Positions 2,282-33,250 of a stretch of DNA of 64,000 nt are shown here, in pieces (position 1 is the stretch's first letter; every line of letters starts with the position of its first letter). The DNA lies in assembly GCA_029717555.1 (NCBI GenBank), contig JAMDHS010000021.1, forward strand, positions 62,001 through 126,000. Direction: 5' to 3'. The notes under the pieces are model-generated. The model had not been told where the DNA came from. It made no database searches and worked only from the letters and a program-made list of their open reading frames with translations. The position numbers and the translations under genes are program-made. This DNA is from Peribolospora baueri (taxonomy: Eukaryota).

Positions 2282-3765
2282 GTCCGACGGCGGGTGGTGT
2301 GCGTGGATGAAGCGGGAGCGACGGGCGTAGCAGGAGCAGAAGAGCAGGGAGGGAAGGAGGAGGAAGGGGAAGCAAGCCGGGTCGGTCGGTGTGCCGAGGG
2401 CGGGTCGGGGTCGAGGTAAGGCGGAAGGAGCTTCGCGACGACGACGCCGGAGTGACGACGAGTTCAGTCACGTCGCGCGGATTTCATTAAGAAGCGTTTG
2501 TGCGAACAAGGTGGGCAAGTAAGTACATACGTATACCTACTATACATCCGTACCATACATACATGCATACACACATTGCATAGAGTATGTACTACGTGCT
2601 CGTCCATCCCCCGCTCCGCCCGTGGCTGCGTGCAACGCCCTACGTAGCCGCGCAGGGCCGTATGCAGGCGGGGGTGGCGACGTACCTGGACGCAGGCAGC
2701 GCGCATGGACGACGAAGGGATAAAGTTTTTTTTCCGAGTCACTCTTCCACGCCCCGAGCCGCCCTTGGACGATGAGGGGGCCATGAGAGCTCCCCGTTCG
2801 CCACACCGGAAGGGGCGAAGAGGACAGGACAGGACAGAGGACGGCCGACGACGACAGCGGCGCGCCTCGTTTCACCTTCTCGCGCCTGTCTCATATCCTC
2901 ACAACCGTAATCTCCTATGGCTGGCCTTTGGGCGGACGTGCTCAACGAGATATAGTATTCGAGTCATAGGGGTTGGCCTGAGAGAGACGTGCCCTTTTTT
3001 TGACTCACAACTACCACCTCTTTCCTCCCCCTTTTCTCGTTTGGGACGCTCGTCGCCGTCCTCGTTGGACAGACGACACTGGAGGACAGGGCGTACAGGA
3101 GACAGCGAGCGAGCTGACAGAACGAACGAGTCCTCGCTGCTCTTCTTCCAACCTCTCCTTTAGCTGCACGCTACATCCGGTTCGACGAAGGCGACCGCGA
3201 GCGCGACATCAGCGGACGGACCGGATTGAGATCCCCCATCTCCTCCGTCCTCTTTTATTAAATTCTGCGACTCAGGCCGGACGTAGTCGAGGTGGAGGGA
3301 GAGCGGGCCGCCATGGCCATGGCCAGGGCCAGGGCCAGGGACGGGGACGGGCTGGCCGGTTTGTCTCGTCCCTCGAGAGGAATTCGAGGTCCACCGGCAG
3401 TCCTTGGATCACGATCGCCTGTGGGAGCCGCGTCTTCAACAGAACACGCCCCAGCGTCAAGGCCAACGCAGCCCCAGCAAAGGGTTTTACGCTCAGTCAG
3501 ATGCTGGTCAATGCCCTCCTCCTCCCCCAACCTGCACGGCTCTTCCACAGAGCCTCTCCGCCGCCCTTCGCTCCCTCTCTTTCTCTTCGTGTCTCCAAGT
3601 CACTTCGACCCGCTCCTTGTAGTCTTTTAATCCATTTAAAGCGTTTCATTCCATTATGCCGACCAGGTCTATTATTAAAGTTTAGAGGATTACGTTTGAG
3701 GAGGAGGAAGGGCTTGTCCGTCCTCGCGCCGGCCTAGGAATGACGTATAAACAAGAAAACGGCGC

Positions 3766-5257
3766 TTAGGGGAAGTCGACGGGGTTAGGAAGCGTGGCGG
3801 GCTTGTCCATCGGCTTCTCCTGGAAGAGGTGCTCGAAGGTGGCGGCGTACGCGGTTCGGGGGGTCAGGTTCTCCCAGCCCCAGAGGTTTCGGAGGAAGGC
3901 GGGGATGGAGGAGTGGGAGTACTCGTTGCGCGACGGCTTGCTCTCAATCACTTCGTTCTTGACGTAGGGGCTCATGAGGATGGTGGGGACGCGGACGCCG
4001 AGACGCTTGAAGTCAAAGGTGTACGGCTTGCCGTCGGGGGCGACGGAGGTGTAGGTCTTGTCGTCGCCGGCAGGGACGCCAACGGGGGTGGCGACGTGGT
4101 CACCGAAGCCGCCGTGCTCATCGAAGGAGAGGATGAAGAGGGTCTGCTCCCACTGCGGCGAGCCGCGGATGGCCTCGTAGATCTTCTTGACAAAGGCCTC
4201 GCCGGTGGTGATGGGGCTGGGCGGGTGGAACGAGTCGTAGCTGCAGCACTCAGGGTTGATGTACGTGAGCTGGGGAAGCTTGCCGGCCTTGGCGTCGGAG
4301 AAGAACTGAGCGATGGGAAGGACGTGGTCCTTGGTTTGGTTGTTGGTGATGGTCCACTCGTAGAACATGGAGTCGGGGGAGAAGGAGGAGTTGTAGTAGT
4401 TGATCCAGGTCACATTGTGCTCCGAGGCCTGCTGGAAGATGCTCTTCTGGGGCATGGCGCCGTCGGCGTTGTTGTTCTCGCCGTAGCCGTGCGAGGTACC
4501 GCTGGTGATGTAAGCGCGGTTGGGGTTGGTGGGGCCGGGCACGTCGGCGAACCACCTGTCGAAGAGGACACCGGAGCGGGCCATGGCCTCCAGCACGGGG
4601 ATGTTCTCCTGCTTGTAGTAGTTGATGGACTCTGCGGCGCGGCTGACGTTGCTGGTCTGGTACGTCGTGGCCTGCTCCGTCACGAAGCCATTCATGACGG
4701 GCTTCACCTTGCCAGCGTCGACGGTGGCCTCGTCGGGGTGGTAGGTGTCGAAGATCGAGTAAGAGACGCCGGAAACGCCGTGATTCCTGAGAGAAGGAAG
4801 GAGAGGGATGTGAGAGATGTGGTGAGAGTCTAAAAAAAGCTCCAGATTTGGACTTGTTCACTCACGGGTCGTCGGGGGCAACGTTGCGAGCAATGTCGGC
4901 CGAGCACACCTGCTGCGAGTTGGACTGCGAGGCGTTGACGGGGTTGCAGTACGGCTGCTTGAGCTGCGCCAAGCCGTCCATCTCGGCGTACCTGTGGCAG
5001 TTCCGAAGGGGACTTTAGTGCCCTGAAGGCCAGGCCGCGCCAGCGACAAGTGGACGAGTAGAAATCCCCGGCGGGGGGGAGGGGCAAGCTCACGTCATAC
5101 CGCCGAACAAGGTGTCGAAGCTGCGATTCTCCTGGATCAGGATCACAACGTTCTTGATCTTGTCCGAGAGGCGGTTGTCCCGCTGGGGAGCCGCGTGGAC
5201 GGCGGTGCCAGCGAGGGCGAGAGAAACAACAGCGGCGGCGCCAGTGGTGAACTTCAT
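3766..5257 (-). CDS. Secreted phosphoesterase / non-specific phospholipase C (phosphoesterase family), 3 exons
   Basis: Signal peptide MKFTTGAAAVVSLALAGTAVHA; motifs IKNVVILIQENRSFD, FDRWFADVPGPTNPNR, SFHPP, FDEHGGFGDHV, RLGVRVPTILMSP. Exons approx 5257-5101, 4991-4866, 4787-3766. Confidence 0.9.
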
Positions 5258-22401: not shown

Positions 22402-22520
22402 TCCGGCCCCGCCGTGGCAGCGTCGATCCCCCGGGAAGGCAGAAAGCAAGAACTGGAAGAGACAAGACACCGACCCTCCGGCCCCGCCGTGTAGAAGCGT
22501 CGATCCCCCGGGAAGGCAGA
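22402..22520 (+). repeat. Imperfect direct repeat (~42 bp, two copies) in the transposon remnant
   Basis: CCGGCCCCGCCGTG...AGCGTCGATCCCCCGGGAAGGCAGA occurs at about 22402-22443 and 22477-22520. Confidence 0.85.
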
Positions 22521-22833
22521 GACAAAGGCGACCTAAACAGGCAGCAAGAAAAGAGGTCTGCTCCCCAGCATGGAAGACCTTCGCGATACCGGAAGCGCGC
22601 AACAGCAGCAACGCCCAATAGATGAAGGCCATATACCGACTGGACGGTAGCAAGAGCAATTCCAGCGCGATCAGCCAACGTCGCACGCACGCGATCTCCT
22701 CCTCGACATTGTCAGAGACTATGGGAAGCCAGCCGAGCTACTCACCGACAATGGGCCTGAATTTGTGGGACACGACTTCGAGACACTCCTCCGCCGGCTT
22801 GATATTCGCCACCTCCGAACGGCACCCTACCAC

Positions 22834-23443
22834 TCACTTTCTCCTGGCCCCATTTCCAGCCATCGGGCACCTTAAGCCCAGAAAGCTTTTCAGCCTCGTC
22901 CTTGCCCTTCTTCGGTCGGCGCGCACATCCTCCTGCCCTGCTTCTCGTCGTTTATCGCCCCAGCCGAGCACTTTTTCAAATCGCTCCCCATTCTCCTTGC
23001 CACCCTTCTGAGACACCCTCTTCCTCGCAGCCTCCATCCACCCGCACCATTCGATGACCTTCTCGTCGTGGTTACCTCGCACGCCCTTGGCGCCCACTTC
23101 TTGCGCGAGACAACGTCTTCAAAGACGGCCCAACGCCACCTTCAGCCACGAGGTCACCCGCGAGGAGGAGCGTATCGTGCTGAGAGTCGAACACAATGTG
23201 CGAGAGAATTCCTTCACGCTCCTATGCAAATCCCCAACAACGATCAATCGTCTCGCACGCGGACCTTTACCCTCACCTTCAAGCCCGAGATCCTCCTCCT
23301 TGATCTGCCGTAGTGAATGTAGTGAACGTAGTCGTGATCCTTCGCCTTGGACTGTTTGCTCTGCATGAACGCCTCGTCGGAAGAGATGACGGCAAAGTTG
23401 GACGAAGTGAGATCGACGTTGAGCTGGCCGACCGAGCCGTCCT
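22834..23443 (-). pseudogene. Captured fragment of a calcineurin-like metallophosphoesterase (Ppn2/YNL217W-like)
   Basis: Across frameshifts: RARRLIVVGDLH(R), FDSQHDTLLLAGDLVAEG, GAKGVRGNHDEKVIEW, matching the GDxHG / GDLV / GNHD metallophosphoesterase motifs. Confidence 0.8.
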
Positions 23444-24428
23444 CCTTAGACGAATGGGTGCCTGGAGAAATTAACGGTATCCTGGTCGACATGCTTTCAA
23501 AGCGGGGACCAGCGTCAGTGGGACGACTTTCTGTACGATGCCCTGCTCGCGCATCGTGTCCAAGTCGTACGGAACGCACGGCTACTCACCATTCTACCTG
23601 GTATACGGACGCTACCCACGCCTCCCTCAAGAGCCAGTGTTCCCTCTCGCAACTGCACCGCAAACTTATGACGAGCGCATCGCTATCGCCGAGGTTCCGC
23701 TCAGCGGTATGTGCACGATCTGGAAGCCCATAGGAAAGGTGCAAATGAACGAGCACTCCGGCCGCATGTAAGAAGAGGCACGACGACGGTACAATACTTA
23801 CGTCGAAAAAGGCCTCAACATCGGCGACTGGGTTCTGCGGTTAAGGAAGACAAGACGACACAAGTTAGAACCTCGGTGGGACGGCCCCGTTCATCATACG
23901 GTCGACAAGCAGTGCGGGTGCTCACCAGTTAGGGGCACCAAGCCGTCATATCTTGCGACTCCTCGTCAATGCAGACCGATTGAAGCTCGCAAGTGGACAT
24001 GGTCCTCACTCTGCAGAATGGTAATGGGCCCGACGCCGCGACCAAGCGAGGCAACGATATGCGACGGTAGAGGCAAGATGATCGCGGACGATCAACTCAA
24101 ACGAAGGGATGATGTTTCGTGTGTTGCAGTCACCGCCTACCTCCGACGGCTCCCGCCTCCCAAGTCACCCCCGCGATATATGCGCCGTGGCTCTCGTTTA
24201 CTCTGTTCAGTTACTTCGTTTCGAAATGCCTCTCCTAGCATCCTTTTGCTCTCGCTCTCAAGCCACACTTCATACGGGGTTTGGATGGGGGGAAGGGTGT
24301 TGGTTATAAAAAAATGTCCCGAGTTGTAACCCAAATGAACGGGCCCACCGTACTACTAACTACAATCGCCTAAGATAAGGGGCGCAAGGGGACGCTCCAG
24401 CGGTGCGAAAGGATCGGGGAGAAGGGAC

Positions 24429-25043
24429 TTAGATCTCGAAGCCGAGATCGCGAGCGTGCTCGAGGATGAGCTGCTCAGTCGCGTCGATGGAGCGCTTGCG
24501 GGAGGATCCGGTGAGGTAACGCCTTGAGACGACGGCGACGTCGCGAGCCGCGATCTCGCGGCTACGACGGCATTTGACGCCGTTGTTGGAGTTGTTGGCG
24601 TTGCCTCCGATGTTGAAGTCACGGCGGCAGTGGAAGTTAGGGCCATTAATGACACCGGAGTTGGCCTGGGAGTTGTCGTGCGTGTTGGTGTTCGTCTCGG
24701 TGTTGGTGTTCGTGCTGTCGAGGAAACGCCTGAGGATAGCCTCGCCCTGCTCGATCTCGCGACGCTCCATCTCCTCCTCGAGCCACTCCTCGCGCCTGCA
24801 TTTGACGCCGTTGTTGGAGTTGTTGGCGTTACCGCCGATGTTGAAGTCACGGCCGAAGTGGCGGCAGTGCAAGTTGGGGCCATTAATTTGACCTGAGTTG
24901 GCCTGGGACTTGTCAACGGTGTTGGTGGTCGTCTCGGTGTGCGTGTTGGTCGTGTCGGCGAAGCGGGGCTCGAGAAAGCGGGGCTCGAGAGCGACCGCGG
25001 CGGTGGCGGCGACGGCGAAGACGGCGAGGGTGGTGAACTGCAT
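24429..25043 (-). CDS. Secreted Kex2-processed repeat protein A (204 aa, intronless; two Thr/Asn-rich plus DFNIGGNANNSNNGVKC modules)
   Basis: Signal peptide MQFTTLAVFAVAATAAVA; many RR/KR sites; tandem duplicated module separated by acidic spacers; codon usage looks strongly coding. Confidence 0.9.
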   Translation of the reverse strand: MQFTTLAVFAVAATAAVALEPRFLEPRFADTTNTHTETTTNTVDKSQANSGQINGPNLHCRHFGRDFNIGGNANNSNNGVKCRREEWLEEEMERREIEQGEAILRRFLDSTNTNTETNTNTHDNSQANSGVINGPNFHCRRDFNIGGNANNSNNGVKCRRSREIAARDVAVVSRRYLTGSSRKRSIDATEQLILEHARDLGFEI

Positions 25044-26430
25044 CTTGATTGATTGTATTAGGAGGGTGGTAGATCAACTACGAGGGACGTTTGTGAAAGA
25101 GGGAAGAACCTGCTTCGAAAGAAGATGAAGAGCGTGGCGTGGGGCGTTGGGGCGAAGACCGGCTTCGAGTTGGTTGGATGTAGAGAGTGTTGGAGAGGTG
25201 AGGGGAGGACCAGCAGGGGGGTTGGCCAGGCCCTTTTATGTGTTCGCAGACGTGGGCGTCGCACTCGTGTGTCTCGCCCACGAGCCTAAGCGTGTGCGAG
25301 GTCGCTGGACGAGCGAGGGCGCCCTAGTGTGGTACGGAGCAGATCGTCGGACGGAACGACCGGCTTCCGACGGCCTTGAGCGCCCTGCCTTGAGCCTAGC
25401 GCCGGCCGCCTTTGGACTAGTTCCCTGCGGGCGGTCTCCCGCAGCCATCGGATCGGTATCGCGAGTCGGGCGAAGAAAAGCGTCCTGGCAGGCCGACAGG
25501 ATGTCACGTTCGCTCAGCCGGACGATGGCGATGGCGAGGGCGTTGGACGGCTAATGTGCGAGACACATGCGGTGAAGTACGAGGCATGATCCGCCACAAG
25601 GAAGCATGCATGCAAGCGAGTTGAATATGCAACGCCACGTTGACCGGCCTGACGAGGACGCCACCGAGCATCGCCTCGGCGCCATAGGCGCTCTGAATCC
25701 GCGTCTTGTCCCTCCGCCATTCCGCGGGCCGGCGGCCGCAGCAGGATCAGACTTGCATGGGACGGATATCGGGTGAGTGGAAAACCGACGCGACGCTCAC
25801 GTCTATCCTCACACGCCCCCAAGCTCATCGCGTACCGACACCGCCCCGCAACGCCCCGCGATGCCCCGAGCGGGCGAGGCGGTGAGACACCTGGCCTGGG
25901 TCGTCCGTCGTCGAGCGAGGGACCGCAGGAAGCCCAGGACGGACGGAGGAGGACGCATGGTCGGTGTAAACTGCTCGCCGCCGACACCAGCCCCCCCTCC
26001 GTCGCTTGTGGCTCTCTCTGTCGCCATCTGTCATGTGGGCGTCGTCCGCACCGCCCTCTCCGCCAGCCAAGCACCGGCATCAACCGGGAGGAAGTTTCGT
26101 CCCATCCTCTCCACGTCCTTCGCCGTGTCGGTGCGGCAATGAGGACATACTCGTGGCGTCCGGCCGGTGGCCACCAACGCCGCCCGCGTCTGGCCTCCAA
26201 GCCCGTGACCCGCATTCCTACTACTTAAGCAGCTCATCCCCCTCGCGCTCCCTTCTTTTCCCCTCCATCCCGGAGATCCCCTTTGTTTCTTACCCCTAAC
26301 CTCTTTGCCTTCGCCTTCTTTTTGCACGGTAGCCGGTCTGCTGTAGCCCCCTTTGCCCAAACATTCCTTCAGATCTTTCAACTTCACGTTCTACCCTCAG
26401 CCTTATCTTCTTCTCCCCTCCCCCGTCACA

Positions 26431-27360
26431 ATGGTCACCTCTTCGCTCCTCAAGATCGCCCTCGTCGCCTTCGCGGCTCACGCCATGGCCACTCCCCTCG
26501 CTGAGCGGGACTACACCCGCCGTACCGACATCACTGGCCAGTGCAACTACCAGAACGACGGCTCGACGGTCAAGTGCGTCAACGCTCCCTTGATCGGCGG
26601 CTCGGCAGGCAACACGGTCATCAACGGCCCCAAGCCCGGGCCGGCGATCTACGAGCGGGAAATTGTCTACAACATGAGGGACATTGACGAGGCGGCCGTG
26701 TTCATGCGCCGCGCCGACGCGGAGGAGTTTTTGATCCGCGACAACTTGGCGGTCCGCGACACGACCATCACCGGTAATGCCAACGGCGCGAACAACGGTA
26801 ACAGCTGCAGCTTGACCCTTCGCCGCCGCGGCAACCCCAACTACACGTGCAACAACGACCCGAAGGTGGGCTCGATCGGTGGCAACACGGTGATCAACGG
26901 CCGCCGTGACGCCAACAACGGGAACAACGCCAACAAGTGCTCCATCCACGTCCGCGACGGTCACGGTACGACGTTCATTTGCGACAACGAGCCGACTGTC
27001 GGTGCGATCGGCGGCAACACGGTCGAGAACGGTCCCAACCCTGGACCGGTGACGATCGGTAAGCGCCTCAACCTCGAGGGCTCTCACACGGCGTACAACA
27101 TGGCTTCCGTTCGTGACGTTGTTGCGTACCACGACCGACGAGCTCTTCTCGAGGGCACTGAGCCGCTGTACCGCCGCGAGGACCTCTGCCCCGGCGTCCC
27201 TGTGGGCCCGAGCGGCGGCCACACGACGCTGAATGGCCCGGTGGGCCAGTCCGTTTACTACAAGAACGCGAAGCGGTGCTCGAACCAGCCGGTGCCTCCC
27301 ACCGCTCCCACCGTCACCATGAACCCTCCCGTAGCCGGCCAGGTCTACTACGGCCACTGA
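26431..27360 (+). CDS. Secreted Kex2-processed Asn/Gly/Cys repeat protein B (309 aa, intronless)
   Basis: Signal peptide MVTSSLLKIALVAFAAHAMA; repeats of C-x-N-x-P-x-(I/V)G-xx-GNTV(I/E)NG; several RR/KR sites. Confidence 0.9.
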   Translation: MVTSSLLKIALVAFAAHAMATPLAERDYTRRTDITGQCNYQNDGSTVKCVNAPLIGGSAGNTVINGPKPGPAIYEREIVYNMRDIDEAAVFMRRADAEEFLIRDNLAVRDTTITGNANGANNGNSCSLTLRRRGNPNYTCNNDPKVGSIGGNTVINGRRDANNGNNANKCSIHVRDGHGTTFICDNEPTVGAIGGNTVENGPNPGPVTIGKRLNLEGSHTAYNMASVRDVVAYHDRRALLEGTEPLYRREDLCPGVPVGPSGGHTTLNGPVGQSVYYKNAKRCSNQPVPPTAPTVTMNPPVAGQVYYGH

Positions 27361-27743
27361 ACGCGGACGTACGGATGGATGTGTGACTTCGTTGGGAACT
27401 GTTCCCGGGGAAAAAAGCCTGTACTCTAATTTAGTTAAAACCTCGTGCTGTCGGGGTGGGCTTTTTTTTCCGCTACCTCCGGCGACGGCTAATGGAAGAC
27501 GAGGTTTTTGAACGTGAATTTCTTTTGTGCACGTTTGCCAAACAAACATGAACCTGGGGAAGACGGGACGGGCGGGCAGGGCAGGTCTCCGAGAGAGAGA
27601 GAGCGTAGTGTAGTGTCGTGCCTCGCTCGCGGTTGGGATGGATTGCGTCTGACGAGACGGGAATGACGGAGATGGTGCGGGGCGGCGAGGAGGAAAAGGA
27701 AGGACGTGTTCCAGTACAGTAAATAGTACGTTCCCGGCCCGGC

Positions 27744-27812
27744 CCAAGCCAAGCCAAGCCAAGCCACCCGGTGGCCGGCTGCGAGGGTCGCCAACAGTAT
27801 CCATTCGCCGAC

Positions 27813-27848
<36 letters not shown>
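27744..27848. repeat. Microsatellites (CCAAG)n and (GTCT)n
   Basis: Tandem CCAAG at about 27744-27765 and GTCT at about 27813-27848. Confidence 0.95.
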
Positions 27849-27852
<4 letters not shown>

Positions 27853-28676
27853 TTCTTTCTTTCTTTCCTTCTGTATGTGTGTGTGAGAAGACCAGGTAGA
27901 AGAGAAAGAACGTGCTTGCTGAACGACGAGGACGGGCGTATCTATCCGAAGGTTGCTCTCCGCGCGCATGCGGGATGCGATGCGAGGAGTGCATACATAC
28001 ATGCGTTCGTTCACACGACGTGCGTTCGGTCGTTGGCGTGAGCGTATTCGGAAGCGGATGGAGCGCCCGCCTTGTGCGAGTGTCGGTTGTGTCGCCGGGT
28101 CGCCGCTCGGAGACGGACACGGAGGCAGCTAACGGCGAACCCGCGCGGACGCCTCTGTCACTACTACCACTGCCTTCTCCTCGCTAGCGATATTGGCGCA
28201 GCCCTTCCATTCATTGGCTGGCACCGACCGTCCCTCCGCCCACTCGAGGCTCCGGCTCCGCTTGGGCAGCCGCCGATGGCGCCGATGGCGCCGCCCGTCG
28301 ACGGTGGTGGTCTGACCTGACTCCGCCTTTTGCCTTTTGTCCTTCGGGCCCATCTAACAGACAGAGACACAGAGGACAATGCGCGACGACATGCGGTCCG
28401 TGCGGTGCTCATCCGGATCATTTGACAGGGCCCGTGTGACTGACTGATGACAGACTGACGCCATGCATTCTGCCCGACCGAGGCCGTTCGTGAGCGGACA
28501 CAGAAAGAGAGGGAGCGGACAACGCATAAAAGTCAACAACGGTCCGCCGACGGTTCGTCCAAAACGCACACGTTCGCAATCCATCACTTTCTTGCCTTTT
28601 TTCCTTTTTTTTCCTCCCTTCGACACATACACACACACACCGTTGCCGTTGCCCTTTCCCCAATACCATCTTGAAG

Positions 28677-29313
28677 ATGAAGTTTGCTTTCCCCGTCGTT
28701 CTCGCCCTCTCCGCCGTCGCCGGTTGCGTGGCTGCCGACGCGGCCGCTACGCCTGTGAGTGCCTGGCTTGGCTTTGCTGCATAAGGTATGGATGGATGGA
28801 TGGACGGGTAGACTGACCGAATCCACGTCGCTTCTCTTCCACGCCTCGCTCCCAGGTCGCCGTCGCTGCCCGCCAAGCGACGTTCTCGTGCGGCAGCAAA
28901 CGAGATTTCACCGTCGGAGGCACGTGAGTGGGGGTCGTAAGAAGGAGAAGAGGCGAAGAAGGTGGGAGCGAAGGCATCTGACGAACAAGTCTCTCCCTCT
29001 CTCTCATCTCGTTTCTAGCACCACCGGCAGCAACAACAACATAACGTGCCCGGACAGCGGGTCTGGCTCCGGCACGTCCGTCCACTCGGTGTCCAGCTCG
29101 GACGGCACGACGACCATCGTATCCGTCTCGAGCTCTGGGCCGTCCGGCACGACCGTCAGCGTCAGCGGCGGTTCGAGCACTAGCACCATCATCCCTTCCC
29201 AGGCTTCGAGCGGCAGCAGCAGCGGTAAGAACGATGCACCGATGACGGCGCAGGCGCCCATTGTCGCTATCTCCCTCGCCATGCTCGCTGGCGCTGGTGC
29301 GGTGTTGCTGTGA
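28677..29313 (+). CDS. Predicted GPI-anchored Ser/Thr-rich surface protein C (146 aa, 3 exons) carrying one copy of the protein-A motif
   Basis: Exons 28677-28754, 28856-28923, 29019-29313 (GTGAGT donors, CAG/TAG acceptors, phases consistent) give MKFAFPVVLALSAVAGCVAADAAATPVAVAARQATFSCGSKRDFTVGGTTTGSNNNITCPDSGSGSG...SSGKNDAPMTAQAPIVAISLAMLAGAGAVLL. Confidence 0.88.
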
Positions 29314-30688: not shown

Positions 30689-32366
30689 ATGATCGCCTCC
30701 ATGTCCCTCTCCGCCCCCTCGACCAGCCGCCTCCAGCCACCCAGCCCCGCCCTCTCTCTTAATAGCCCCGGAGGAGGCATTCTCCTCAACCGCCATCGAC
30801 CACCCTGCCTCGCCGCCGCCCAAGACCAGCAGCCGCCGCCCATCCACTCCTCCGCCCCGCCCGCCTCGGACGCTGCTGAGCCCCACGCCCACGCGCCCAC
30901 TTTCACCACCACCTCCTTCCTCCCTTCCACCTCTGCCGTCCCCTTCGGCACCCCGCCCAGAAGACACGCGGAAATAGCGAACGAAGACGGCGACGGCGCC
31001 ACCGTCGACGCTGCCGACCAAGGTGAGCAAGCGAGCCAGCGAGCCAGCGGACATGGGCACAACTTCTTCAACAACTCCGAGCTCACATCCCCGGTCCTCT
31101 TTCTCTTCCTTCCCCTTCTTCTGCTTTTCTCGCCATATATTCCTGCTTCCCCCTTCACGGCCATCGGCTTAGATCCATTGACCGCGCCGACGATGACGCG
31201 GCCGACGTCGATCATGATGACAACGACCACGATAGGCGTCGCCAAGACCGATCCCCAACCAGCTCCTCCGCCTTCCGACGTCGACGCCGACCTGTCCCGC
31301 GGCCGCACGGATGCCGGCGACCGAGCGACCGCCAGTGGGTCTGTCCCCACCTCGCGCTCCGCCTCCCAGACCGTCAAGATCCGCTTCGCGCCCTTGCCCG
31401 ACCCTTCGCGCTACGACGATGACTCCTCCTCCTTCGACGACAGTGAAATCTCGGACGAGTACGACATCGTGCACATCAACGACACCAACGCCCCTTCATC
31501 CGGCGCCCTCCTCTCTGCTTCTGCGCCCAACGACGCCGCCGGCCGCGCCTGGGCCGAGGGGCAGGAGATCGTCTTGGCCGACGCCGAGGGCAAGACGCTA
31601 CGGGGTACCCTCGGCGGCATGGTCAAAAGGCCTGCCAGGTCGCGCAAAGAGGCTGGCGCCGCGGGCGCGCGAATCGGGGATGAAATCGAGGAGCGCATCG
31701 TCCAGCTCGATGGCTCGCCGTGGGCGGCGGCCGTCGCGCCAGCGGGAGAAGACGGTGGCGTCCGTCATCCCGCCGCCAAGGATCGCCCCGGCGGGGGCCA
31801 ATCCTCTGCCTCTGTGGCAACCAAGTCGGCCGGATGGGGCAAGAGGCTCCTCCGACCGCTGAGGATCGTCGGCAGCAGCGGCGGCGGCGCCTTCTCCTCC
31901 GACGCCCTCTCTCTCTCCCGCTCTCACTCTCGCGACGAAGGCAACGGTGCTGGCGCTACCGCCGACCGACGCGACGCGTCTGCACCGACGACCACCCTTG
32001 TCAGAGGACAGCTGGCGCGCCGGAGCAGCACGGGCCAGCTGATGGGCGAGAACCCGCACCGATCGCAGGCGGAGAAGGAAAGGATGAAGAGCATGCACGG
32101 TCGCAAGATCTCTCTCTTTGGCGGCGTTGGCGGCGGTGGTGGTGGTGGCGGCTCGGAGAGTCATTTCCCCCGCATAGACTCGTTGCCGGAGAAGAGCAGC
32201 AGCCGCCGGAGGTCGTCGTGCGATAAGGACAAGGACAAGGACGGCGGGAGGGGACGGAGGCTGTTCGGTTTCGGCAGCGGCTCCGTCACCTCGGTCACCC
32301 CGGATAACGACCTCTCCCTCTCGCGTACTCGCTCCGGCGGCACATCTGGCTCGACGTCGACCGTCT

Positions 32367-32398
<32 letters not shown>

Positions 32399-33250
32399 GG
32401 CGGTGAGCGAAGGAGGAAGAGATCCCGCTCCCGCGAAGGCCAGACGCCGCGAGAACGGGTGCCACTTGGTTCGGTGGGTTCTCGAAACCGCCAACTGCGC
32501 GAGCTCCGGCCGGGCGGAGCGGCAGGCGCGCCTCCGCCGTCATTCCGACCCTGGTCGTCCTCCTCCCTCCTCTCTTCCAACCCCAGCGTCGCCGGTCCCG
32601 GTCCCGCCGGCGCGCTCAATAAGCCCACCACCGTCGTGGACGAGCCCAAGTTTGATGAGTGGGGCCCACTCGCCTCGCCATCGTCCCGTCCGATCAACCT
32701 CACCGCCACGCCAGCCGTGGGGTCGTCCTCCGCCGACAAAACCGCAGTCACCGCCAAGGCGGGTTCATCAGGCGAAGGAGGCGACGCGGAGGACGACGAG
32801 GACGACGGGAGCGGGATGGCATGGGTACGACGAAGGCGAAAGCAGAGGGAGGAGAAGGAGAGGAGGGAGAAGGAGGCCAAGGAGGCCGCAGCTGCCGCGG
32901 CCGCTGCGATGAAGGGCGGCGCATCCGCCGACGACGCCGATGACAATTCAACCAAGCCGACTCCCGCTCGGGCGGCGGGCGACGGGATGGGCAACTCGGA
33001 TGAGCAGGTCATTGCCAGCTTTTCATCTTCGTCTTCCTCCACGCCATCCTCGTCTTCTTCGTCCCGGACTTCTTGCGATGAAGAAGGTCGACGGGATGAT
33101 GGGCTGGCTGTCCGTAGCGATGAGGAGGAGGACGAGGACGAGGAGGAAGAGGAAGAGGTGCTGCAGAAGGAGGAAGAAGAGGCGGAGAAGGCTCGACGAA
33201 CGACAAAGGCCGCCGGCGCCGAGGTCGTCCACGTTCACAAGCGCGAGTGA
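30689..33250 (+). CDS. Hypothetical low-complexity/disordered protein (probable intron near 31023-31171)
   Basis: Long open frame with islands KIRFAPLPDP, DDGSGMAWVRRRRKQREE and RRTTKAAGAE between Ser/Gly/Glu runs. No recognisable domain. Confidence 0.7.

What the first reader, a model, noticed from the sequence alone, without database searches (positions are those of the whole stretch)
24429..29313. Three-gene cluster sharing a 17-aa post-cleavage peptide motif: two secreted Kex2 repeat precursors plus a GPI-anchored carrier (candidate surface-polymer system)
Seen in sequence: three adjacent secreted-protein genes each contain a gap-free 17-residue motif right after a basic residue. A: (GR/RR)-DFNIGGNANNSNNGVKC, two copies. 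B: R-DTTITGNANGANNGNSC, 10/17 identical to A. C: KR-DFTVGGTTTGSNNNITC, 8/17 identical to A. A and B also share INGP and GGN submotifs. A and B are divergent and soluble; C ends in a Ser/Thr stalk and a GPI-type hydrophobic tail. Established knowledge: Kex2-processed repeat proteins yield surface peptides in basidiomycetes (Ustilago Rep1 repellents form amyloid-like fibrils), and some bacterial functional amyloids pair free subunits with surface-associated homologues (short and long chaplins; CsgA/CsgB). Inference: A/B peptides polymerise as Asn/Gly-rich beta-sheet fibrils or a coat that C nucleates or tethers. I do not recognise this motif from any described family.
Basis: partly seen in the sequence, partly recalled or inferred. 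Interest (0 to 1): 0.88.

Follow-up and report, generated by a model that had tools for sequence, protein, structure and literature searches.

The report
Disulfide-stapled secreted repeat family, anchored member
Three neighbouring genes of a smut-related fungus, plus a fourth elsewhere in the genome, encode an uncharacterised family of secreted, protease-cut, cysteine-paired proteins, one of them probably anchored to the cell surface; they may build a surface coat, but nothing yet shows that they are expressed together or bind each other.

Summary
The three genes and the shared motif are real: A-B and A-C similarity exceed shuffles (0-2 of 2000). But the unit is not a 17-aa post-cleavage peptide. 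Only 1 of 6 copies would be freed as a 17-mer under KR/RR rules, and a fourth paralogue (D, another contig) carries the motif without a preceding basic residue. The conserved unit is a two-cysteine module. B has colinear relatives in Ceraceosorus and two unnamed records with all 8 cysteines invariant; A and GPI-type C carry the module's halves in permuted order (layout chosen after the fact). Cysteine pairs mostly bracket the basic sites, so processing probably yields disulfide-linked chains. New here: the 5' leaders of A, B and D each hold two Smaug/Vts1-type CNGG hairpins (1 of 84 control leaders); C has none. Peptides are hydrophilic, unlike repellents or chaplins. Expression, synteny, polymerisation and C's tethering role are untested. 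No Pfam, PDB or literature match; the scan had not noted this family before. Verdict: new variant of Kex2-processed secreted repeat proteins; structural surface role plausible (0.45), chaplin-like nucleation by C about 0.2.

The parts
24429..25043 (-). Gene A, 204 aa, intronless secreted precursor; two 52-55 aa repeats separated by acidic Arg-Arg-delimited spacers
   Evidence: GC3 0.85
24798..24962 (-). A repeat 1 (residues 28-82): six alternating Thr, Cys60...Cys82; 17-mer at 24798-24848 after Gly-Arg
24570..24725 (-). A repeat 2 (residues 107-158): six alternating Thr, Cys139-Arg-Arg...Cys158; 17-mer at 24570-24620, the only copy with dibasic sites on both sides
25153..25167 (-). A leader hairpin 1: 5-bp stem, CCGGU pentaloop (Smaug/Vts1-type)
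25103..25116 (-). A leader hairpin 2: 4-bp stem, CAGGUU loop
26267..26277 (+). B leader hairpin 1: 3-bp stem, CCGGA loop; conserved in paralogue D; weak
26326..26344 (+). B leader hairpin 2: 7-bp stem (2 G-U), CCGGU pentaloop; conserved in D with CUGGU loop
26431..27360 (+). Gene B, 309 aa, intronless secreted precursor, 8 Cys, colinear with Ceraceosorus CBOM_06553 and IE81DRAFT_243444
26668..26721 (+). Conserved acidic pro-segment of B (residues 80-97) ending in Arg-Arg-Ala-Asp-Ala, the best conserved stretch across species
26758..27048 (+). B core (residues 110-206): 17-mer at 26758-26808, then two Cys-pair repeats (126/140, 170/184)
28677..28754 (+). Gene C exon 1 (signal peptide)
28856..28923 (+). 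Gene C exon 2: Cys38, Lys-Arg site, first part of the motif (from 28904)
29019..29313 (+). Gene C exon 3: end of motif with Cys59 (29047-29049), Ser/Thr stalk (29053-29226), GPI-type signal (candidate omega Asn120, 29230-29310)

Best explanation
A, B, C and an unlinked paralogue D are members of one uncharacterised family of secreted proteins of Exobasidiomycete-type fungi, built from an Asn/Gly-rich two-cysteine module. Shown: homology of B and D to relatives in other species; presence of the module's two halves, in swapped order, in A and C. Inferred: after signal-peptide removal and disulfide formation, Kex2 removes the acidic spacers and nicks the loops between paired cysteines, so that the products are disulfide-stapled two- or multi-chain units rather than free 17-mers; C gives one such unit on a glycosylated Ser/Thr stalk with a GPI anchor. 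Inferred, weakest step: the hydrophilic, turn-rich beta-strand units act as structural material at the cell surface or in the extracellular matrix (adhesion, cohesion or wall coating), produced in a particular developmental state, with translation or decay of the soluble members' mRNAs controlled by Vts1 through leader hairpins. Whether C binds A or B products is open.
For: Motif above chance. B relatives P0001, P0003-P0005 colinear, all 8 Cys and several Arg sites invariant in 5 of 5 sequences. HMM from other-species repeats only recognises B and D (0 of 1000 shuffles each); the same halves in permuted order recognise A (1 of 5000), C (4 of 5000), B (0 of 5000). With cysteines paired consecutively, a dibasic site lies inside 6 of 9 pairs in A-D and a single Arg in 2 more. 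B and D share leader DNA and signal-peptide sequence. Two CNGG hairpins per leader in A, B, D versus 0 of 33 and 1 of 84 composition-matched leader-like windows; Vts1 orthologue present (E 7e-18). Precedent in the same subphylum: Rep1 peptides form surface fibrils (PMC3133707; PMC4617103).
Against: No expression evidence for any of the genes. A and C have no detectable full-length relative elsewhere and are missed by the colinear HMM (89 and 121 of 1000 shuffles); the permuted test was laid out after seeing A and C. Disulfide pairing is assumed from sequence order. The C. bombacis relative is absent from that species' FPKM>=1 list (tag mapping unverified, list covers 20.73% of genes). C lacks the leader hairpins (0 CNGG in 145 nt). 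The 13-nt hairpin pattern is not rare genome-wide (26 hits, 50 for the reversed control), and closing-pair probabilities in whole-leader folds are only 0-0.42. Clusters of related secreted genes arise in smuts by local duplication without implying a complex.
Confidence: 0.45

Rival explanations
1. One reading: a chaplin-like system in which soluble A/B/D units polymerise into cross-beta fibrils that the GPI-anchored unit of C nucleates or tethers, possibly through disulfide exchange.
For: Free and anchored carriers of one module sit side by side; the Arg-Asp-Phe-x-Ile/Val-Gly-Gly pattern occurs 3 times in the genome, all in A and C (pattern made from them); long and short chaplins work this way and have two conserved Cys (PMC3079736 passages).
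Against: Units are hydrophilic, the chaplin domain is hydrophobic; C lacks the leader elements of A, B, D; D lies on another contig with no motif-bearing anchored neighbour in about 10 kb on each side; no synteny data.
Confidence: 0.2
2. The genes are a local cluster of diverged paralogues with separate jobs: Cys-stabilised peptides acting outside the cell as effectors, antimicrobials or ligands, with C an ordinary GPI wall protein that kept one ancestral module.
For: Relatives occur in a plant pathogen genus; Kex2 processing and Cys pairs are typical of apoplastic effectors (PMC8528282 passages; PMC3133707); a Gypsy-type integrase remnant lies next to A; other unrelated Kex2-type precursors occur in this genome.
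Against: Low-complexity Asn/Gly/Thr/His-rich repeats and large variation in repeat context (A versus D) suit a material better than a target-specific ligand (inference); B's architecture is conserved over a long distance (about 32-36% identity).
Confidence: 0.27
3. Gene A's strictly alternating Thr strands form a flat ordered face that binds ice or another crystalline or polysaccharide surface, as in Thr-x-Thr antifreeze or nucleator proteins (recalled, not from a call).
For: Six alternating Thr kept in both repeats while intervening residues vary.
Against: Only two such strands per precursor; pattern could come from 6-12-nt slippage; absent from B, C, D; no family match.
Confidence: 0.05
4. 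The shared motif is a compositional coincidence among Asn/Gly-rich secreted proteins.
For: A-C and B-C identity counts are not or barely significant; whole-protein BLASTP A-B only E 0.006.
Against: Scores beat local-composition shuffles, windows fall in register, D matches B at 13 of 17, and profiles from other species find the module.
Confidence: 0.03

Closest known systems
Kex2-processed repeat proteins (KEPs), Le Marquer et al. 2019 (PMC6339444)
   Same: Signal peptide, many KR/RR sites, repeated fragments, no catalytic domain (A, B, D).
   Different: A has two repeats, below the three required; Cys pairs bracket the sites; one member is GPI-type, which the KEP pipeline would discard; 'GPI' does not occur in that paper's main text.
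Ustilago maydis Rep1, Hum3, Rsp1 (PMC3133707, PMC4617103)
   Same: Same subphylum; Kex2-delimited repeats; Rep1 peptides form surface fibrils; Rsp1 repeats are hydrophilic like these.
   Different: Rep1 and Hum3 repeats are amphipathic and number 12-17; no Rep1-like protein was returned by searches with A or B; no anchored paralogue is described in the passages read.
Streptomyces chaplins (PMC3079736)
   Same: Free and wall-anchored carriers of one short domain with two Cys.
   Different: Bacterial, hydrophobic domain, sortase anchor, not protease-nicked; no chaplin Pfam match at E<=1. Analogy only.
Ceraceosorus hypothetical proteins CBOM_06553 and IE81DRAFT_243444
   Same: Colinear with B, invariant cysteines and pro-segment.
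   Different: Three Cys-pair repeats with longer spacers; unannotated; not named in the held literature.
Smaug recognition element bound by Smaug/Vts1 (PMC4053848 section 9)
   Same: CNGGN loops on short stems; G before the loop in 4 of 6 and pentaloop in 5 of 6, the preferred forms.
   Different: Here paired in predicted 5' leaders of secreted-protein mRNAs; binding not shown; loops CCGG/CAGG are the less preferred second-base variants.

Membership tests
KEP (Le Marquer 2019) | Signal peptide and no membrane segment | tested here: inconclusive
   Hydropathy only, SignalP/TMHMM not available: fits A and B; C has a hydrophobic tail
KEP (Le Marquer 2019) | At least four fragments after KR/RR cleavage | tested here: met
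   A 8 and B 9 fragments; not met by C (2 fragments) (definition)
KEP (Le Marquer 2019) | At least three similar fragments covering 15% of the protein | tested here: inconclusive
   Not met by A (two repeats); B has three fragments sharing the Gly-Asn-Thr-Val module but the FIMO pipeline was not run
Rep1-type repellent | Amphipathic peptides of 35-53 aa | tested here: not met
   Cys-bearing fragments of A and B are 19-66 aa, GRAVY -0.3 to -1.3; Rep1 features; Rep1 itself was not scored alongside
Rep1-type repellent | Sequence homology to Rep1 | tested here: not met
   No such hit (indirect: no direct pairwise comparison)
Rep1-type repellent | Surface-active amyloid-like fibrils | not testable with these tools
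   Needs ThT, EM, wall extraction
Hydrophobin | Eight-Cys pattern with two Cys-Cys doublets (recalled) and Pfam match | tested here: not met
   B has 8 Cys, none adjacent; no Pfam match
Chaplin | Hydrophobic 40-aa chaplin domain | tested here: not met
   No Pfam match at E<=1; hydrophilic
Chaplin-like system (works like) | Anchored and free carriers co-expressed and co-assembling | not testable with these tools
   Architecture present; no RNA or binding data
GPI-anchored protein (gene C) | Signal peptide, Ser/Thr stalk, small omega residues, polar spacer, hydrophobic C-terminus | tested here: met
   Manual check: stalk 41% Ser, omega candidate Asn120 26 residues from the end, hydrophobic tail; NetGPI not run
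Smaug recognition element | CNGGN(0-4) loop closing a stem | tested here: met
   6 hairpins in A, B, D leaders; 4 of 6 fold with the loop free in local MFE at or near the drawn stem, A2 and D1 fold otherwise
Smaug recognition element | Lies in the transcript and is bound by Vts1 | not testable with these tools
   Downstream of TATA-like boxes; Vts1 gene present; start sites and binding unknown

The most novel reading that the evidence does not exclude
A fungal counterpart of the long/short chaplin principle: Kex2-nicked, disulfide-stapled Asn/Gly beta-units from soluble precursors A, B and D assemble into a hydrophilic surface polymer on a GPI-anchored, circularly permuted copy of the same module (C), with the soluble subunits' mRNAs held under Vts1 control by paired 5' leader hairpins.
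Probability: 0.15. Interest if true: 0.8.

Novelty: new variant of a known kind. Interest (0 to 1): 0.5.

Why it matters
Smut-related fungi coat their surfaces with Kex2-derived peptides, but beyond Rep1 almost none of these precursors has a known role, and no anchored nucleator was found in the papers read. This locus offers a defined, testable set: a cross-species family with invariant cysteines, a natural permutation of the repeat, an anchored member, and candidate Vts1 sites that would name cell-surface targets for a conserved RNA-binding protein. If only the family and its processing hold, it is a modest addition to a known class.

Tried and rejected
No relatives: protein database with A and B alone (near lengths only), ESM Atlas (13, 14), JGI metagenomes (22, 24), PDB sequences, Pfam, Rfam (114, one chance match). 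P0002 is an unrelated cysteine-poor bacterial-type repeat protein and was dropped; genome hits L002, L005, L006, L013, L044, L049, L052, L053 were weak; L013 and L049 were read and are unrelated, the others were not followed. Spliced C could not be submitted to the large searches; only exon 3 was searched, in the own genome. No RNA holder was listed, which is no evidence on expression. AlphaFold2 gave mean pLDDT 35 (B core) and 34 (B with 5 sequences); both drew hairpins between consecutive cysteines but are not evidence, and no fold search was run. The cluster look-up for P0001-P0003 could not be made, so P0001 has no name and no synteny could be read. Shared 10-11-mers between the A/B and C promoters are within what GC-rich DNA gives by chance (C and D share as many) and were rejected. 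Gene E's leader and the 3' regions of A, C, D have no CNGG hairpin. One search used mis-registered columns on two sequences and is uninformative. KEP tables of PMC7329392 list Ceraceosorus accessions that could not be mapped to the locus tags, so prior listing of B's relatives as KEPs is not excluded; supplementary file 1 of PMC4607519 was not searchable.
Full report
Gene models. The window is contig C132:62001-126000 of a 22.7 Mb, 668-contig assembly. Gene A (24429-25043, minus, 204 aa) and gene B (26431-27360, plus, 309 aa) are single open frames, divergent from a 1.4 kb intergenic region. Gene C (28677-29313, plus) gives 146 aa after removal of two GT-AG introns of 101 and 95 nt with branch-like sequences and pyrimidine tracts. 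All three start with a hydrophobic segment; third-position GC is 0.83-0.85. C has a Ser/Thr stalk (residues 61-118, 41% Ser, 14% Thr) and a GPI-type end with a candidate omega site 26 residues from the terminus. These are manual predictions; no RNA run was listed, so splicing and expression are unverified.

The motif is real. Scores were reached by 0-2 of 2000 shuffles for A-B, 0 of 2000 for A-C and 13-28 of 2000 for B-C under four shuffle schemes that keep global or local composition; identity counts alone are weaker (A-C 63-122 of 2000; B-C 841-1124 of 2000). A DNA pattern made from the A/C start of the motif matches 3 places in the genome, all in A and C, control 0.

It is not a post-cleavage 17-mer. 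Under strict KR/RR cutting only A's second copy is released as such; A's first copy follows Gly-Arg, B's follows one Arg in an LxxR context (an expanded Kex2 motif according to passages of PMC8528282) and is not followed by a site for seven residues, and C's stays on the anchored chain. A looser pattern gave 24 genome matches (control 20), of which 6 were in A, B and a new gene D at the end of contig C219; a tighter one gave 6 matches, 5 of them in A, B and D. D is a secreted Gly/His-rich protein with 120-aa repeats, two introns, and a copy of the motif 13/17 identical to B's that follows a Gly run and precedes a poly-Arg loop and a second Cys. Its 3' end is at the start of contig C69, so the repeat number is unresolved. 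B and D also share leader DNA and signal-peptide sequence.

The conserved unit is a two-cysteine module. A full HMMER scan with B found 3 proteins at E<=0.001; two (P0001, P0003; 36% identity) are colinear with B and one is unrelated. A profile search returned 3 proteins among 7999 candidates scored: Ceraceosorus bombacis CBOM_06553, C. guamensis IE81DRAFT_243444 and an unnamed assembly product; Ceraceosorus is in Exobasidiomycetes, which suggests, without proving it, a similar placement for this genome. In the five-sequence alignment all 8 cysteines of B, an acidic pro-segment ending Arg-Arg-Ala-Asp-Ala and several Arg sites are invariant; three of the five are close congeners, so there are about three independent lineages. 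The 17-mer itself is only weakly recognisable in them. An HMM built from 12 repeats of the other species scores B and D above all 1000 shuffles but not A (89 of 1000) or C (121 of 1000). When the same profile is cut into its halves and read in swapped order (hydrophobic-x-Cys, 5-8 residues, hydrophobic-Gly-Gly, then Asn-x-Gly-Asn-x-Cys), A is matched by 1, C by 4 and B by 0 of 5000 shuffles. Pairing cysteines consecutively, 6 of 9 pairs in A-D enclose a dibasic site, 2 a single Arg and 1 none; the relatives are similar. If that pairing is right (inference), Kex2 nicks loops that stay closed by disulfides. Structure prediction did not help (pLDDT 35 and 34).

The stretches between a TATA-like box and the start codon of A, B and D each hold two hairpins with a CNGG loop, the Smaug/Vts1 recognition element as defined in section 9 of PMC4053848; 5 of 6 are pentaloops and 4 of 6 have G before the loop, the preferred forms. 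Dinucleotide shuffles reach two hairpins in 31 (A), 5 (B) and 30 (D) of 5000 cases at stem >=3, and in 2 of 5000 for A at stem >=4. In 248 kb of other DNA from this genome, 0 of 33 (G<=15%) and 1 of 84 (G<=18%) leader-like windows have two, and 9 of 125 CNGG words lie in stems against 6 of 10 in these leaders. The genome has a Vts1 orthologue (E 7e-18 to the solved Vts1 SAM domain); in Cryptococcus Vts1 moves to P-bodies under heat (PMC5017699 passages). Against: the test is post hoc, B and D are not independent, whole-leader folds give closing-pair probabilities of 0-0.42, the 13-nt pattern occurs 26 times genome-wide against 50 for its control, and C's leader has no CNGG at all.

How it probably works. 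Shown: one family, four genes here, secreted architecture, conserved cysteines and basic sites, one GPI-type member. Inferred from established Kex2 biology: removal of acidic spacers and nicking of loops. Inferred: a structural role at the surface or in the matrix, because the units are low-complexity, turn-rich and repeated, and because Rep1 in the same subphylum does this (PMC3133707 introduction and discussion; PMC4617103 passages). The fragments are hydrophilic (GRAVY -0.3 to -1.3), so a water-repellent coat is unlikely; an adhesive or cohesive polymer, or an Rsp1-like unknown role, fits better. That C tethers or seeds the soluble units, as long chaplins do (PMC3079736 passages), rests only on adjacency and the shared module. 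Synteny could not be read; D has no motif-bearing anchored neighbour within about 10 kb on either side, though another Gly/Asn-rich KR-delimited gene and a GH5 gene lie next to it. The C. bombacis relative is missing from that paper's FPKM>=1 list while its neighbour is present (PMC4607519 passages and one supplement; tag mapping assumed), which would fit stage-specific expression but proves nothing. Effector-like separate functions remain a serious rival.

Novelty. No Pfam, PDB-sequence or Atlas match. Ten literature searches found the KEP class and Rep1/Hum3/Rsp1 but no paper naming these relatives or a GPI-anchored partner of a Kex2 repeat precursor; subscription journals are largely absent from the library, and KEP supplement accessions could not be mapped. 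A fails the three-repeat rule of the KEP definition and C fails it altogether (PMC6339444 section 24); the set works like KEPs without being a textbook member. Earlier scan notes show other Kex2-type precursors in this genome but not this family. Verdict: observation largely right, unit misdefined, mechanism plausible but untested; new variant of a known kind, interest 0.5.

Noticed in passing
L023 937-1992 (G000:C219 end) and L047 1-193 (C69 start): Gene D, unlinked paralogue of B with Gly/His-rich 120-aa repeats; contig break inside the repeat with a 127-nt overlap.
   Followed up: yes
L084 about 2436-3891 (-): Another secreted KR-delimited precursor 5 kb from D: three Gly/Asn-rich repeats of about 110 aa, each with a Cys-x4-Cys motif; its N-terminus shares Phe-Leu-Glu-Pro-Arg with gene A; two near-identical introns.
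   Followed up: partly
L084 4996-7509 (+): GH5-family gene with signal peptide and a probable GPI-type tail between genes E and D.
   Followed up: no
window 22650-23900: Degenerate Gypsy-type retrotransposon integrase remnant (rve, E 1e-9) directly downstream of gene A, with stops and frameshifts; a 44-nt direct repeat at 22402/22477.
   Followed up: partly
window 24909-24962 and 24672-24725 (-): Six strictly alternating Thr residues at the start of both A repeats.
   Followed up: partly
L054 1501-1683 (-) (G000:C186): Vts1/Smaug orthologue SAM domain.
   Followed up: yes
window 26296-28128 (-): 610-codon stop-free frame antisense to gene B, most likely a shadow of GC-rich codon usage and microsatellites.
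   Followed up: no
window 30689-33250 (+): 853-aa low-complexity ORF downstream of C with no Pfam match.
   Followed up: no
L085 about 7203 (+): Signal-peptide-bearing gene 7 kb downstream of D's 3' end, no Pfam match in the frame tested.
   Followed up: no
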